Assembly: GCA_964460785.1 (NCBI GenBank)
Contig: CAYWQB010000002.1
Coordinates: 65,364 to 129,363 of the forward strand
DNA from: an uncultured bacterium
GTDB lineage: Bacteria; Chlamydiota; Chlamydiia; Chlamydiales; CAYWQB01
Reading direction: 5' to 3'
DNA: 64,000 nt
The notes beneath the pieces were generated by a model. That model made no database searches, was not told the DNA's origin, and saw only the letters and a list, made by a program, of their open reading frames with translations. Shown piece by piece: positions 52,270 to 57,260 of the stretch. A program made the position numbers and the translations under genes. The first letter of the stretch is position 1, and each line of letters opens with the position of its first letter.

Positions 52270-53472
52270 ATGAAAGTTGACCCACCAGACCTCCTTCCTT
52301 CTTCTCTGCTTGAAAAGCTCCTATTTAAATGGAGCTCAATCAATAGCTACTCATTAAATAGAGAGGGATTAGATAAGCAGTTTGAAGAGCTACAGCAAGC
52401 ATTTGCTTCTCTTGAAGCCAAAATGCAAGCAAAGCCTTTAAAGCCTTACCTTCCTCCCTTTTCTTCCTCTTGTGATGACCCTGTAGCCTTAGGCAAAGTG
52501 CTTCTTTTGCAAAAACGACAAGAGGCTCCTAAGCAAATTTTTCTCTGTGGGCACTATGATACTGTGCACTCTCCTTCTTCAAACTTCCAGCAGGCAAAGT
52601 ACCTTACCAAAAAAAGCTGCATCCAGGGTCCTGGTGTACTCGATATGAAAGGAGGATTACTTGTACTCCTCAATACGCTCCAAGCAATAGAAAAAACAAA
52701 ATGGAAAAACTCCATTGGCTGGACTTTGCTAATTTCTCCAGATGAGGAAATTGGCTCTCCTAGCTCTTATCGGCTCATCCAACGGCTAGCCAAACATGCC
52801 CATATGGGTATTGTGGCAGAACCTTGCCTAAAAAATGGCAATTTAATTAGTGCGCGCAAAGGCTCCTTAAACTTCCTCATTGAATCTTGCGGCCGAGAAG
52901 CTCATGCAGGAAGAGAATTACATAGAGGAGAAAATGCTATCTCGCTTCTTCTTCCTCATTTAGAGTGGATTGAAAATTATAGCAGACAAACACCTAGTTT
53001 AGCTGTAAATATTGGCTATATAGCAGGTGGACATGCCTTAAATACTGTACCAGGTAGTGCGCGTGTAGGGGTCAATGTACGCTCCTCAAATGAAAGCGCA
53101 CTTGCAAACTTTCAACAAAGGTTAAAAAGGCGACTAAAGCCTCAAGCGGATTCTCTCCTTTACCGCCAGCTGAGCTATCGCTCTCCAAAACCCTTCACTC
53201 CAGAAACAGAACACCTTTTTCATCTTTACCAACAGGCAAGCCAACAAGCAGGTCTAGATATCTTTTGGGAGGAAAGTGGAGGTGTTTGTGATGGTAATCA
53301 CTTGCAAGCCGCTGGGATTCCTACTATTGACACTGTGGGGGTGTGTGGCGGTTATGCGCATAGTGACCGTGAGTATATGGAAGTAGAGAGCTTACAGAGC
53401 AAATCTGAGGCCCTTTTTTTCTTTTTTTATAAACTTGCAACCATGCCTCTTTCTGCATGGTTTAGCTCTTGA
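52270..53472 (+). CDS. M20 family metallopeptidase (carboxypeptidase G2 / DapE / ArgE clan)
   Basis: LCGHYDTVH, GPGVLDMKGGLLVL, LISPDEEIGSPSS, HAGREL. These are typical M20A metal-ligand blocks. Confidence 0.8.
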   Translation: MKVDPPDLLPSSLLEKLLFKWSSINSYSLNREGLDKQFEELQQAFASLEAKMQAKPLKPYLPPFSSSCDDPVALGKVLLLQKRQEAPKQIFLCGHYDTVHSPSSNFQQAKYLTKKSCIQGPGVLDMKGGLLVLLNTLQAIEKTKWKNSIGWTLLISPDEEIGSPSSYRLIQRLAKHAHMGIVAEPCLKNGNLISARKGSLNFLIESCGREAHAGRELHRGENAISLLLPHLEWIENYSRQTPSLAVNIGYIAGGHALNTVPGSARVGVNVRSSNESALANFQQRLKRRLKPQADSLLYRQLSYRSPKPFTPETEHLFHLYQQASQQAGLDIFWEESGGVCDGNHLQAAGIPTIDTVGVCGGYAHSDREYMEVESLQSKSEALFFFFYKLATMPLSAWFSS

Positions 53473-53480
53473 GGATAGTT

Positions 53481-54845
53481 ATGCCACTACTGACTGATTC
53501 TGATTTACTCAAAGATCCTGACTTTAAAAAAGGAAAGCAACTTTTACTACAAGCCATAGAGAAGCATACTAAGCATATTACGAAGATTGCTCCTCCACAA
53601 AAGCAGAGAGCCTCCTCGTATGAGCAAGCGATCAAAGAAATCTCCAGAAAGCGAGGAGCCCCTCTTTTCTTTCCTTATATAGGGTCTGGTCTTGGTAGAG
53701 GTCCTTTCGTGCAGCTAGCTGATGGGAGCATTAAATATGACTGTATCTCAGGTATTGGTGCGCACTTTGGCCATCATCACCCTGCTGTGACAGAGGCAAT
53801 GATTGAAAGCTCCCTCTCCAACACCGTCATGCAAGGACATCTTCAACAAAATCATGACTCCCTCACACTCATGAAAAAAATTTGCAAACTTGCAAAAAGC
53901 GACCATTGCTTTATCAGCACATCAGGAGCGATGGCTTGTGAAAATGCTTTGAAGATTGCGCTACACTACAAGCAGCCTGCACAACGTATTTTTGCTTTTT
54001 CTAATTGCTTCATGGGGCGTACCACCACTTTAAGCCAAATTTCTGACCGCCCAAACTATCGCGTGGGCCTGCTTAAAAACCTACAAGTCACCTACCTTCC
54101 CTTTTATGAACCAGGCAAAAAAAACGTAGCTCTTCACCTGTTAAAAGAGCACTTAGCTCGCTACCCTGGGGAGTATGCAGCCTGTGCAATGGAGCTTGTC
54201 CAAGGAGAAGGTGGGTTCAATGTAGCTCCTCGCTCCTTTTTTCTTCCTTTGCTTGAGGAGCTCAAAGCTGCAGATATCCCTATTTTATTTGATGAAGTTC
54301 AAACATTTGGGCGCACAGGAGAAGCTTTTTGCTTTCAAACTTTAGGCTTAGAAGAATTCGCTGATATTGTCATGATTGGCAAACTTGCCCAGGTCTGCGC
54401 TACAATCTACCGCAAGAAGTATCAACCACAACCTGGCATTTTGAGCCAAACCTATACTGCGTCCACCAGCAGTATTCGCGCATGCTCAGCTATTTTAGAG
54501 GAAATGCAAAAGAAAGCGTTCTTTGGGCCTAAAGGCAAAGTTTGCATGGCGCACCGATGGTTCACCTCAGAGTTTAACCGCTTAAAAAAAGAACATCATG
54601 GCTTGGTTGATGGTCCATTTGGTATCGGAGGCATGTGTAGCTTTACTGCATTTGGAGGAGATGCTCAAAAGACTAAACAGCTCCTCCATACTCTCTATAC
54701 ACGTGGTGTTATCTGCTTTACTTGTGGAGGGGACCCACTGCGCATTCGGTTTTTATTTCCGCTAGGTGCTATTGAGAAGGAACACATCCAAGAAATTGCC
54801 CAGATTGTCTCCCTATCCGTACAGGAGATTCATAGCCATGGCTGA
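53481..54845 (+). CDS. class III (omega) PLP aminotransferase
   Basis: STSGAMACENALKIA, FDEVQTFGRTGEAF, IGKLAQVC (PLP-Lys region). GAGGA lies 5 nt before ATG 53481; the ORF track starts at TTG 53469. Confidence 0.8.
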   Translation: MPLLTDSDLLKDPDFKKGKQLLLQAIEKHTKHITKIAPPQKQRASSYEQAIKEISRKRGAPLFFPYIGSGLGRGPFVQLADGSIKYDCISGIGAHFGHHHPAVTEAMIESSLSNTVMQGHLQQNHDSLTLMKKICKLAKSDHCFISTSGAMACENALKIALHYKQPAQRIFAFSNCFMGRTTTLSQISDRPNYRVGLLKNLQVTYLPFYEPGKKNVALHLLKEHLARYPGEYAACAMELVQGEGGFNVAPRSFFLPLLEELKAADIPILFDEVQTFGRTGEAFCFQTLGLEEFADIVMIGKLAQVCATIYRKKYQPQPGILSQTYTASTSSIRACSAILEEMQKKAFFGPKGKVCMAHRWFTSEFNRLKKEHHGLVDGPFGIGGMCSFTAFGGDAQKTKQLLHTLYTRGVICFTCGGDPLRIRFLFPLGAIEKEHIQEIAQIVSLSVQEIHSHG

Positions 54846-55779: not shown

Positions 55780-55799
55780 GCGAATCGGAGGAGTGTAAG

Positions 55800-57260
55800 A
55801 TGACTCAAACTTTTTTTCACCACATTGCCGGGAAATGGCATGAAGGAAAAGGGGAAACAATACACTCTAGAGACCCTGGAACAGGGGAACTCATTGGTAT
55901 TGGCCAAGAAGCTACAGCAGATCAAGTCAACCAGGCTGTTCTTGCGGCAAAAGATGCCCTCTTTTCTTGGGCTAATACCCCTTTATCCCAAAGAATTAGT
56001 TTCATCAAAGATTTTGAGGAGCTGCTACAAGAAAATAAGCAAGAGTTTGCTCGGGCGATTTCAGAAGAGACAGGCAAGCCTCTATGGGAGTCTCAGGGTG
56101 AAGCCACAGCGATGTTAAATAAAATCGCAGTGTCTATTGAAGCGTATTACGATCGCTCTGGAGTTCATCAAAAACAGGACGGAAAGCGCCACCTTCAGCT
56201 CATGCACCGACCTTTAGGAGTTGTGGGAGTGATCTCCCCTTTCAACTTTCCGGGACACCTCCCTCATGGTCAAATAATCCCAGCTCTTATTGCAGGGAAT
56301 ACGATCGTCTTCAAACCAAGTGAATTTACACCTATAGTTGGCGAAGAGCTGGTTAGGCTATGGCAACAGGTCGACCTACCTGAAGGAGTCCTCAACCTCT
56401 TACAGGGTGGTGGCAAGGTTGGAGAAGCTGTTGCACAGCATCCTGACGTCAATGGCTTATTCTTTACGGGTAGCTATGAAACTGGGCTCAAACTCTCCCG
56501 CATGTATGCAGAGTACCCAGAAAAGCTGCTTGCTATGGAGCTAGGAGGGAACAACCCCTTGATTATTGGTGAAGATATTCACCCAAAGGCCGCAGCGCTC
56601 TTTACTGCACAGTCTGCCTATCTCTCAGCCGGCCAACGCTGCACCTGTGCTAGACGGCTAATCTTAGTAGATGGACCGCAAGCAGAAGCTTACTTAGAAG
56701 AATTACTTGCCTTGATTCCTCGCTTACGCGTGGGCCATTACCTATCAGCTCCTGAACCCTTCATGGGCCCTTTGATTCACCCCCAAGCTGCAGAGAATGC
56801 TATGGCATGGCAAAAAAGGCTACTAGACCAGGGAGCGACTCCTCTCTGTCCAATGAAACTCAGTAAGCCCTCTTATCTCAGCCCCGGTCTTCTTGATGTT
56901 AGCAAAGTACATAACCTACTAGATCGAGAGATCTTTGCCCCCTGCTTACAGCTTGTGCGGGTACCTCATCTTACCCAGGCAATTCATGTAGCAAACCAAA
57001 CAAAATATGGCTTGGCCGCTGGGTTGATCTCGAGTTCTCAAGAAGATTATATGCAGTTTTCTAGAGATATCCGTGCAGGAGTGATTAGTTGGAATAGTCC
57101 AATGACAGGAGCAAGTGGGAAGGTTCCCTTTGGAGGAATTGGCTGTAGTGGAAACTTCCGCCCTGGTGGTTACTACACAACAGACTTTTGTACCTATCCG
57201 ATGGTTGCAACAGAGTCTGCAAGGCTTGTAACCCCAACTTACCTTCCAGGTCTTAATTAG
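55800..57260 (+). CDS. astD: N-succinylglutamate-5-semialdehyde dehydrogenase-like aldehyde dehydrogenase
   Basis: Long collinear similarity to E. coli AstD: MLNKIAVSIEAY, HRPLGVVGVISPFNFPGHLPHGQIIPALIAGNTIVFKPSEFTP, LWQQVDLPEGVLNLLQGG, ELGGNNPLII, AGQRCTCARR. GGAGGAG SD. Confidence 0.88.
   Translation: MTQTFFHHIAGKWHEGKGETIHSRDPGTGELIGIGQEATADQVNQAVLAAKDALFSWANTPLSQRISFIKDFEELLQENKQEFARAISEETGKPLWESQGEATAMLNKIAVSIEAYYDRSGVHQKQDGKRHLQLMHRPLGVVGVISPFNFPGHLPHGQIIPALIAGNTIVFKPSEFTPIVGEELVRLWQQVDLPEGVLNLLQGGGKVGEAVAQHPDVNGLFFTGSYETGLKLSRMYAEYPEKLLAMELGGNNPLIIGEDIHPKAAALFTAQSAYLSAGQRCTCARRLILVDGPQAEAYLEELLALIPRLRVGHYLSAPEPFMGPLIHPQAAENAMAWQKRLLDQGATPLCPMKLSKPSYLSPGLLDVSKVHNLLDREIFAPCLQLVRVPHLTQAIHVANQTKYGLAAGLISSSQEDYMQFSRDIRAGVISWNSPMTGASGKVPFGGIGCSGNFRPGGYYTTDFCTYPMVATESARLVTPTYLPGLN

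What the first reader, a model, noticed from the sequence alone, without database searches (positions are those of the whole stretch)
52270..57260. AST-like four-gene operon lacking astB and astE, with an M20 peptidase and an atypical aminotransferase
- **Genes:** four same-strand genes are tightly coupled (8-nt gap with the SD over the stop, 8-nt overlap ATGGCTGA, 20-nt gap with GGAGGAG). They encode:
  - an M20 metallopeptidase;
  - a class-III aminotransferase;
  - an AstA-type N-succinyltransferase;
  - an AstD-type semialdehyde dehydrogenase.
- **Difference from the canonical pathway:** the arginine succinyltransferase operon is astCADBE. Here succinylarginine dihydrolase (AstB) and the AstE-type desuccinylase are missing from the cluster.
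- **Possible substitute:** the M20 clan includes N-succinyl-DAP desuccinylase (DapE) and ArgE. The M20 gene is therefore a plausible non-orthologous replacement for AstE.
- **Possible chemistry:** without AstB, the four enzymes still form a closed acylate-transaminate-oxidise-deacylate route. It would act directly on a diamino acid such as ornithine or lysine.
- **Aminotransferase type:** its PLP-lysine region (IGKLAQVC) and its length (454-458 aa) remind me of lysine epsilon-aminotransferases rather than ArgD/AstC. This is from memory and unverified.
- **Context:** such a catabolic module is unexpected in an obligate intracellular lineage.
Basis: partly seen in the sequence, partly recalled or inferred. 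Interest (0 to 1): 0.6.

Follow-up and report, generated by a model that had tools for sequence, protein, structure and literature searches.

The report
Chlamydial AST operon missing astB
An environmental chlamydia carries the widespread but apparently undescribed 'M20-type' version of the arginine-to-glutamate (AST) operon and has secondarily lost one step (astB), so the four remaining enzymes probably now break down ornithine; this is a variant of a known pathway, not a new kind of system.

Summary
The four coupled genes are real: M20 hydrolase, class-III aminotransferase (AT), AstA-like succinyltransferase, AstD. astB and astE are absent from the whole genome, which is rated 100% complete. 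The layout is derived, not a separate design.

- **Ancestral operon:** in other chlamydial families, and in Planctomycetota, Fibrobacterota and a Desulfomonilaceae MAG, it is M20-AT-astA-astD-astB.
- **M20 for AstE:** the same M20 heads astA-astD-astB operons in Caulobacterales, Legionella and Kordiimonas, and astA-astB clusters in Sphingomonadales. AstE was not found in any of 121 chlamydial or 5 other such genomes. The M20 is therefore very probably the succinylglutamate desuccinylase.
- **Aminotransferase:** it forms its own clade. It is neither AstC/ArgD nor LAT.
- **Loss in this genome:** astB and a flanking oxidase gene are gone. A tRNA and an accessory block follow astD.
- **AstA:** it is the most divergent chlamydial copy, with a 21-residue deletion and two invariant residues changed. 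A 40%-identical relative shares the deletion, so the derived form is maintained.

Most likely function: ornithine to glutamate plus succinate. A rare ureohydrolase shared only with another astB-less chlamydia may supply ornithine or replace AstB; this is unproven.

This scan noted the M20-type operon before on other DNA (e1-5014556, e1-3827268).

The parts
52270..53472 (+). M20 metallohydrolase (CPG2-like, NCBIfam NF005602/PRK07338 family). Inferred N-succinyl-L-glutamate desuccinylase that replaces AstE.
   Evidence: - Pfam M20 plus dimerisation domain; NF005602 369 bits against a cutoff of 357.
- Metal and catalytic residues H95, D125, E159/E160, E184 and H364 are invariant in a 12-sequence alignment.
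- Nearest PDB entry is carboxypeptidase G2, 1cg2.
- It is the first gene of AST operons across phyla.
53481..54845 (+). Class-III aminotransferase of a distinct, uncharacterised subfamily. Inferred N2-succinylornithine 5-aminotransferase (functional AstC analogue). An alternative TTG start lies at 53469.
   Evidence: - Aminotran_3 at 154 bits; below every NCBIfam cutoff.
- PLP lysine K301 and the D271-E272-x-Q274 motif are invariant.
- Own clade with 100/100 support, apart from E. coli AstC/ArgD, GabT/PuuE, PatA and BioA.
- It lies between M20 and astA in five-gene operons of five phyla.
54838..55779 (+). AstA-family N-succinyltransferase, strongly derived. Inferred ornithine (or arginine) N2-succinyltransferase.
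   Evidence: - Pfam AstA at 175 bits; below the NCBIfam AOST/AstA cutoffs.
- Matches PDB 1yle in two blocks that skip residues 185-208.
- Unique 21-residue deletion, plus G->N and R->F at positions invariant in 24 other sequences.
- Longest branch in its tree, 2.2 times the median.
- Lowest Pfam score of the full-length chlamydial copies.
- The deletion is shared with P0002, which is 40% identical.
55800..57260 (+). AstD, N-succinylglutamate 5-semialdehyde dehydrogenase.
   Evidence: - TIGR03240 equivalog at 592.7 bits against a cutoff of 579.3; NF006992 at 617 bits.
- The catalytic motifs MELGG and GQRCTC are present in the translation.
- 41-52% identical to chlamydial AstD.
57305..57379 (+). 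tRNA-Met(CAU), 44 nt after the astD stop. It marks the boundary where astB and a flanking oxidase gene lie in relatives; an accessory gene block follows.
   Evidence: - ARAGORN call and sequence.
- In relatives AstB follows astD directly.
- A ~950-aa FAD-oxidase/Fe-S gene flanks the operon in six families and is absent from this genome.

Best explanation
**Origin.** The cluster is the chlamydial form of a widespread 'M20-type' arginine succinyltransferase operon, M20-AT-astA-astD-astB. In that operon an M20 zinc hydrolase does the last step in place of AstE (N-succinylglutamate to glutamate plus succinate), and a separate class-III aminotransferase clade does the AstC step. This genome has secondarily lost astB, together with a flanking oxidase gene.

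**Likely function of the four remaining enzymes.** They most likely run the ornithine branch of the pathway:
1. The derived AstA succinylates L-ornithine with succinyl-CoA.
2. The aminotransferase converts N2-succinylornithine to N-succinylglutamate semialdehyde.
3. AstD oxidises that to N-succinylglutamate.
4. The M20 releases glutamate and succinate.

Ornithine would come from the host, or from arginine through the genome's single arginase-fold ureohydrolase.

**Shown:** gene identities, the ancestral gene order, the loss of astB, and the absence of AstE.
**Inferred:** all substrate assignments, the M20 activity, and ornithine as the entry substrate.
For: - **Ancestral order.** M20-AT-AstA-AstD is followed by a strong AstB (465-694 bits) in ten chlamydial families. 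The same five genes occur in Planctomycetota, Fibrobacterota and a Desulfomonilaceae MAG; a Verrucomicrobia contig (L073) ends within astA.
- **M20 and AstE.** The M20 heads astA-astD-astB in Caulobacterales, Legionella and Kordiimonas, and astA-astB in Sphingomonadales. AstE was found in 0 of 121 chlamydial genomes, although 46 have AstB and 43 have the M20 above its cutoff. AstE was also found in 0 of 5 named non-chlamydial genomes. The nearest solved structure is carboxypeptidase G2.
- **Loss here.** There is no astB, astE or remnant in a genome rated 100% complete. Only 44 nt separate astD from a tRNA. The flanking oxidase gene is also gone.
- **The genes are still functional.** All four ORFs are intact and translationally coupled, and catalytic residues are kept. 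The derived AstA architecture is shared with a 40%-identical protein.
- **C5 substrate.** AstD passes the succinylglutamate-semialdehyde dehydrogenase equivalog cutoff.
- **AstA changed most.** Terminal branch ratios are AstD 1.3, M20 1.5, AT 1.8 and AstA 2.2. This fits a shift in the substrate-selecting first enzyme.
- **Precedent, from my own knowledge.** The Pseudomonas aeruginosa AruF/AruG succinyltransferase accepts both arginine and ornithine.
Against: - No enzyme activity has been measured for any of the four proteins or their relatives.
- G040, the other high-quality astB-less chlamydia with all four genes, has a canonical AstA. Loss of astB therefore does not require the AstA changes.
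- The AstA changes (a deletion and two invariant residues lost) could reflect relaxed constraint rather than a new specificity.
- The genome has no arginine deiminase or ornithine carbamoyltransferase, so an internal ornithine source rests on one ureohydrolase of unknown specificity.
Confidence: 0.55

Rival explanations
1. Urea-forming bypass of AstB. AstA still succinylates arginine. The genome's arginase-fold ureohydrolase (G000:C2:2385-3500, outside the window) hydrolyses N2-succinylarginine to N2-succinylornithine plus urea, and the aminotransferase, AstD and M20 then continue as usual.
For: - Among 400 genomes of the order, only this genome and G040 carry this ureohydrolase subtype. Both have AstA, AT, AstD and the M20 but no AstB.
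- By ClpB identity, G040 is not a close relative.
- G040's AstA is canonical, which fits arginine remaining the substrate.
- The genome has none of the three arginine decarboxylase classes, so the enzyme is not an agmatinase fed by endogenous agmatine.
- The Mn-binding motifs are intact.
- Among its nearest solved relatives is proclavaminate amidinohydrolase, which from my own knowledge acts on an N-alpha-substituted arginine derivative.
- Unverified notes from this scan report ureohydrolase genes in the astB position on other DNA.
Against: - The gene lies 115 kb from the operon.
- In seven neighbourhoods of family members, no AST gene is nearby.
- None of my 80 M20-anchored loci has a ureohydrolase.
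- The one astB-less planctomycete I verified (G643) has a nearby ureohydrolase of a different, agmatinase-type subfamily, 27% identical.
- The co-occurrence amounts to one independent replicate, and G040 is only 93% complete in 400 contigs.
Confidence: 0.13
2. Non-functional remnant. Loss of astB broke the pathway, and the four remaining genes are decaying or idle.
For: - This genome's AstA is the most divergent copy in the order: two Pfam stretches of 98 and 74 bits, against 252-397 bits for the others.
- It has lost two otherwise invariant residues and a 21-residue segment.
- All four proteins have above-median branch lengths.
Against: - All four ORFs are intact, with coupling signals kept.
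- Catalytic residues are kept in the M20, the aminotransferase and AstD.
- AstD still passes its equivalog cutoff, and the M20 passes NF005602.
- The AstA deletion is shared by an intact gene that is only 40% identical, so it is old and has been maintained.
- From general knowledge, reduced intracellular genomes usually lose idle genes quickly.
Confidence: 0.15
3. A different diamino acid is the substrate, such as lysine or diaminobutyrate. The aminotransferase would act like a lysine epsilon-aminotransferase on the succinylated compound.
For: - The AstA and the aminotransferase are both atypical and fall below every curated NCBIfam cutoff.
- The derived AstA could have changed its substrate.
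Against: - AstD passes the C5-specific succinylglutamate-semialdehyde dehydrogenase equivalog cutoff.
- The LAT model scores 86 bits against a cutoff of 521.
- The aminotransferase clade is fixed in operons that contain AstB, which are arginine operons.
- The M20 family is the same as in full AST operons.
Confidence: 0.07
4. Ordinary split AST pathway, with astB and astE encoded elsewhere in the genome.
For: Some planctomycetes do keep AstB 20-30 kb from an AT-astA-astD cluster.
Against: Four family searches and a tblastn search find neither gene nor any remnant in a genome rated 100% complete in 8 contigs.
Confidence: 0.02

Closest known systems
Arginine succinyltransferase (AST) pathway: astCADBE of E. 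coli, aruCFGDBE of Pseudomonas aeruginosa
   Same: - AstA-family succinyltransferase.
- AstD that passes its equivalog cutoff.
- A class-III aminotransferase in the AstC position.
- A final amide hydrolase.
- An operon organisation with translational coupling.
- In most chlamydial relatives, a bona fide AstB.
   Different: - No AstE: an M20 (CPG2-like) hydrolase stands in its place.
- The aminotransferase is not an AstC/ArgD ortholog.
- In this genome AstB is missing.
- AstA carries a 21-residue deletion and two changed invariant residues.
Ornithine branch of the Pseudomonas arginine/ornithine succinyltransferase (AOST) pathway
   Same: The chemistry proposed here: ornithine to N2-succinylornithine, to N-succinylglutamate semialdehyde, to N-succinylglutamate, to glutamate plus succinate. 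It does not need AstB.
   Different: - Pseudomonas uses a heteromeric AruF/AruG enzyme and AruE (AstE-type), and keeps AruB for arginine.
- Here there is one AstA-like gene, an M20 hydrolase and no AstB.
- Use of ornithine is inferred, not shown.
Carboxypeptidase G2 / M20A glutamate carboxypeptidases; DapE and ArgE deacylases
   Same: - M20 fold with a dimerisation domain.
- All metal and catalytic residues are conserved.
- CPG2 cleaves N-acyl-L-glutamate amide bonds, which is the reaction type needed for desuccinylation.
   Different: - Only 73 bits to CPG2.
- It belongs to a separate NCBIfam equivalog (NF005602), named only 'hydrolase'.
- The genomic context is AST operons, not folate or DAP/arginine biosynthesis.
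M20-type AST operons noted earlier in this scan (e1-5014556 chlamydial; e1-3827268 planctomycete; e1-1398367 Bdellovibrio-type)
   Same: The same M20-for-AstE layout. The chlamydial five-gene form is the parent of this cluster, and variants without astB were also noted.
   Different: This genome combines loss of astB with a uniquely derived AstA, and has no ureohydrolase in or next to the operon.

Membership tests
Canonical AST pathway (astCADBE) | AstA arginine N-succinyltransferase | tested here: inconclusive
   The Pfam AstA family is met (175 bits against a cutoff of 29). The NCBIfam AOST subfamily (146 against 284) and the AstA equivalog (130 against 391) are not met. The protein has a deletion and two invariant residues changed.
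Canonical AST pathway (astCADBE) | AstB succinylarginine dihydrolase | tested here: not met
   Absent from the whole genome, which is rated 100% complete. tblastn finds no remnant.
Canonical AST pathway (astCADBE) | AstC succinylornithine transaminase (ArgD/AstC clade) | tested here: not met
   TIGR03246 scores 72 bits against a cutoff of 610. In the tree the enzyme sits in a separate clade with 100/100 support.
Canonical AST pathway (astCADBE) | AstD succinylglutamate-semialdehyde dehydrogenase | tested here: met
   TIGR03240 scores 592.7 bits against a cutoff of 579.3.
Canonical AST pathway (astCADBE) | AstE succinylglutamate desuccinylase | tested here: not met
   PF04952 and TIGR03242 are absent from this genome and were not found in 121 genomes of the order.
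M20-type AST operon (M20-[AT]-astA-astD-astB) | NF005602-family M20 gene heading the operon, directly upstream of AT or astA | tested here: met
   NF005602 scores 369 bits against a cutoff of 357. The same position is seen in chlamydial loci and in most of the 80 loci from other lineages.
M20-type AST operon (M20-[AT]-astA-astD-astB) | Operon-linked class-III aminotransferase clade | tested here: met
   43-47% identical to chlamydial members. It falls inside the clade, with 100/100 support.
M20-type AST operon (M20-[AT]-astA-astD-astB) | astB at the 3' end | tested here: not met
   astD is followed after 44 nt by tRNA-Met. AstB is present in 45 of 51 AstA-positive genomes of the order.
M20-type AST operon (M20-[AT]-astA-astD-astB) | M20 enzyme hydrolyses N-succinyl-L-glutamate | not testable with these tools
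   Inferred from the pathway hole, conserved synteny and similarity to CPG2. No assay exists in the literature I could search.
L-lysine epsilon-aminotransferase (LAT) | Match to the LAT family model (TIGR03251) above its cutoff | tested here: not met
   86 bits over residues 214-443 only, against a cutoff of 520.8. PDB LAT scores 60.8 bits, below ArgD, GabT and AstC.
Ornithine succinyltransferase route | Succinyltransferase accepts L-ornithine | not testable with these tools
   No residue-level specificity rule is known to me. An enzyme assay is needed.

The most novel reading that the evidence does not exclude
In this chlamydia, and independently in G040, a rare arginase-fold ureohydrolase subfamily has taken over from AstB. 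It would act either as an N2-succinylarginine amidinohydrolase or as an arginase feeding a re-specialised AstA. Either way the result would be a urea-releasing AST pathway in which only AstA and AstD still belong to the canonical E. coli enzyme families. This subfamily has Tyr or Phe where my recollection of agmatinase sequences places a His-containing S-H-G-T motif.
Probability: 0.15. Interest if true: 0.65.

Novelty: new variant of a known kind. Interest (0 to 1): 0.45.

Why it matters
- **A pathway hole filled.** The M20-for-AstE replacement would fill a hole in arginine catabolism for many bacteria, including Caulobacterales, Sphingomonadales, Legionella, Planctomycetota and about 40% of sampled chlamydiae. 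Their M20 gene is currently named only 'hydrolase' or 'glutamate carboxypeptidase'. The searchable literature does not describe this replacement.
- **A natural experiment.** The astB-less derivative here shows how a pathway is re-used after losing a step. Its most-changed enzyme is the one that chooses the substrate.
- **Chlamydial biology.** It shows that many environmental chlamydiae can turn host arginine or ornithine into glutamate and succinate.

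Tried and rejected
- **astB or astE elsewhere in the genome:** rejected.
- **LAT affinity of the aminotransferase:** rejected. No LAT sequence was available for the tree, so this rests on HMM and PDB scores.
- **G040 as a 'clean deletion' of astB:** withdrawn. I had inferred it from the size of the ~955-aa gene after its astD. That gene is an M1 aminopeptidase, whereas the ~950-aa gene after astB elsewhere is an FAD oxidase.
- **Linkage of G040's astA and ureohydrolase contigs:** the contig ends do not overlap.
- **Gene-neighbourhood support for the ureohydrolase:** none in seven contexts and none in 80 M20-anchored loci.
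- **More members of the derived AstA lineage:**
  - The word-based search found only the window's own protein.
  - The metagenome scan found only 22-25% identical homologs.
  - The closest M20 relative on a long contig (P0234) lies in a canonical five-gene operon.
- **Literature:** seven searches found nothing on AST in chlamydiae or on an M20 desuccinylase.

Full report
**1. Observation**

The window holds four + strand ORFs at the stated coordinates.
- M20 to aminotransferase: an 8-nt gap, with GAGGA across the M20 stop codon.
- Aminotransferase to astA: the ATGGCTGA overlap.
- astA to astD: a 20-nt gap containing GGAGGAG.

Profile searches confirm the families:
- The first gene is an M20 hydrolase with its dimerisation domain. 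It passes the NCBIfam equivalog NF005602 (PRK07338, named only 'hydrolase').
- The second is a class-III aminotransferase that reaches no curated cutoff.
- The third is a Pfam AstA member that falls below the NCBIfam AstA/AOST cutoffs.
- The fourth passes the AstD equivalog cutoff (592.7 against 579.3 bits).

The window lies in a 1.95-Mb, 8-contig genome rated 100% complete. That genome has no astB and no astE by four family searches. It has no astB remnant by tblastn with eight chlamydial AstB proteins.

**2. What the cluster comes from**

*In chlamydiae.* AstA homologs occur in 17 of 40 other families of the same order. Fetching their flanks showed a syntenic M20-AT-AstA-AstD cluster. In ten families the next gene is a strong AstB, at 465-694 bits. 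Over a 121-genome sample of the order:
- AstA is present in 51 of the 120 genomes that could be scored.
- AstB is present in 46.
- The NF005602-type M20 is above its cutoff in 43.
- AstE is present in none.

Of the 51 AstA-positive genomes, 45 also have AstB. The six without it are G000 (this genome), G006 and G040, which are at least 90% complete, and three incomplete assemblies. The ancestral chlamydial operon is therefore M20-AT-astA-astD-astB, and this genome carries a derived form.

*Outside chlamydiae.* A scan of species-representative genomes with the M20 alignment, mapped with tblastn, shows the same M20 at the head of AST operons in several lineages:
- M20-astA-astD-astB in Caulobacterales (Brevundimonas, Oceanicaulis, Maricaulis), in Legionella and Tatlockia, and in Kordiimonas.
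- M20-astA-astB in Sphingomonadales.
- The full five-gene form, with the same aminotransferase subfamily (46-58% identity), in Planctomycetota, Fibrobacterota and a Desulfomonilaceae MAG. A Verrucomicrobia contig (L073) shows M20-AT-astA and ends within astA.

Planctomycetota were confirmed separately. Five named non-chlamydial genomes with such operons also lack AstE. In the control genomes, Caulobacter vibrioides matches AstA and AstB but not AstE.

**3. The M20 as desuccinylase**

The case rests on four points:
- A pathway hole: AstE is missing wherever this M20 heads the operon.
- Conserved position next to astA across phyla.
- Intact metal and catalytic residues.
- Carboxypeptidase G2 as the nearest solved relative. 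From established knowledge, that enzyme hydrolyses N-acyl-L-glutamate bonds.

This is inference; no assay exists. Seven literature searches found nothing on it. Public names for its homologs are only 'hydrolase' or 'glutamate carboxypeptidase'.

**4. The aminotransferase**

Its best solved relatives are all weak and about equally distant: ArgD 74 bits, GabT 70, AstC 67 and LAT 61. The LAT model covers only the C-terminal half, at 86 bits against a cutoff of 521.

In a tree with E. coli AstC, ArgD, GabT, PuuE, PatA and BioA, the operon-linked enzymes form their own clade with 100/100 support on a long branch. The PLP lysine and the DEVQ motif are invariant. Because the clade sits in arginine operons that contain AstB, its inferred role is the AstC step. 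The LAT idea is not supported.

**5. The loss in this genome**

- astD ends at 57260, and tRNA-Met(CAU) starts 44 nt later.
- A ~950-aa FAD-oxidase/Fe-S gene flanks the operon in six chlamydial families and is absent from this genome. The 3' end of the ancestral cluster was therefore removed.
- clpB lies beside the operon in two relatives (G018, G037) and about 21 kb upstream here. This suggests the operon is at an inherited position.

**6. Is the remnant functional, and on what substrate?**

*Evidence for function.* All four ORFs are intact and coupled, and catalytic residues are kept.

*AstA stands out:*
- It alone, among 25 aligned sequences, lacks a 21-residue segment.
- It has Asn for an invariant Gly, and Phe for an invariant Arg.
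- Its terminal branch is 2.2 times the median, against 1.3 for AstD, 1.5 for the M20 and 1.8 for the aminotransferase.
- Its Pfam score comes in two pieces, 98 and 74 bits, against 252-397 bits in the other full-length copies.

The exhaustive search found one relative, P0002, at 40% identity. P0002 shares the deletion and the lost Gly, and it is intact. The derived form is therefore old and maintained, which argues against simple decay.

*Substrate.* AstD passing its equivalog cutoff points to a C5 substrate. Without AstB, succinylarginine would be a dead end. The simplest working route therefore starts from ornithine, as in the ornithine branch of the Pseudomonas AOST pathway (my own knowledge).

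**7. Where ornithine, or a replacement for AstB, might come from**

The genome has no arginine deiminase and no ornithine carbamoyltransferase. It has none of the three arginine decarboxylase classes. It has one arginase-fold ureohydrolase, at G000:C2:2385-3500. That enzyme is below all curated cutoffs and sits nearer to guanidino-acid hydrolases, proclavaminate amidinohydrolase and agmatinases than to arginases.

Among 400 genomes of the order, only G040 has a full-length ortholog. G040 also has AstA, AT, AstD and the M20 without AstB. By ClpB identity it is not a close relative.

This is suggestive, but it is a single independent replicate. Gene neighbourhoods give no support. One astB-less planctomycete (G643) has an M20-AT-astA-astD cluster with a ureohydrolase 3.3 kb downstream. 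That enzyme is a canonical agmatinase type, only 27% identical to this one. Other planctomycetes with divergent clusters keep AstB 20-30 kb away.

**8. Earlier notes of this scan**

After I had formed the ureohydrolase idea (note), look-ups showed that the scan had described related clusters on other DNA:
- The chlamydial five-gene M20-type operon (e1-5014556).
- A planctomycete variant with a neighbouring ureohydrolase (e1-3827268).
- Unverified first-reader notes of ureohydrolase or pentein-fold genes in the astB position (e1-4465062, e1-3048224, e1-4340850).

My own results agree with the first two. I could not check the others.

**9. Verdict**

This is a real, conserved catabolic module. 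It is a secondarily astB-less derivative of a widespread, apparently undescribed M20-type AST operon.

- Origin of the cluster: confidence about 0.9.
- Ornithine-to-glutamate function: about 0.5.
- Novelty: a new variant of a known kind.
- Interest: moderate.

Noticed in passing
L014, L020, L022, L023, L024, L027 (chlamydial loci); absent from G000: A ~870-970-aa FAD-linked oxidase fused to 4Fe-4S and CCG domains (glycolate-oxidase or D-lactate-dehydrogenase-like) flanks the AST operon in six chlamydial families, usually right after astB. The copies are 42-47% identical. The gene is missing from this genome. Any functional link to arginine catabolism is unknown.
   Followed up: partly
G000:C2:2385-3500 (outside the window; locus L028:1288-2403): An arginase-fold ureohydrolase of a distinct ~360-aa subfamily. 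All Mn-binding motifs are present, but Tyr or Phe stands where my recollection of agmatinase sequences places a His-containing S-H-G-T motif. The subfamily also occurs in Deltaproteobacteria, Myxococcota and Bdellovibrio-like MAGs, always as a stand-alone gene. Its substrate is unknown.
   Followed up: partly
L016 (G006:C29): Another chlamydial variant: M20-astA-astD, with neither the aminotransferase nor AstB found anywhere in a 95%-complete genome.
   Followed up: partly
L068, L071, L072, L075 and other Sphingomonadales loci: Sphingomonadales carry a three-gene M20-astA-astB cluster with no astD or aminotransferase nearby. The other steps are presumably encoded elsewhere.
   Followed up: no
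G000, whole genome: No PF02784-type decarboxylase was found, so there is no LysA, SpeA or ornithine decarboxylase. The PvlArgDC and OKR_DC_1 arginine decarboxylase families were not found either. Ornithine carbamoyltransferase and arginine deiminase are also missing. The organism apparently cannot make lysine from DAP, cannot make polyamines from arginine or ornithine, and cannot synthesise arginine.
   Followed up: partly
window 51881-52285 (- strand): A 134-aa ORF on the opposite strand overlaps the M20 start codon by 16 nt if its annotated GTG start is used. The promoter scan found no sigma-70-like site upstream of the M20 gene, so the operon's promoter is unidentified.
   Followed up: no
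L029 (G040:C52) and L026 (G040:C105): In G040 the AST genes are scattered: M20-AT on one contig, astA after a FliD-like gene on another, and astD followed by an M1 aminopeptidase N on a third. This shows that the operon can be broken up while the genes are kept.
   Followed up: partly
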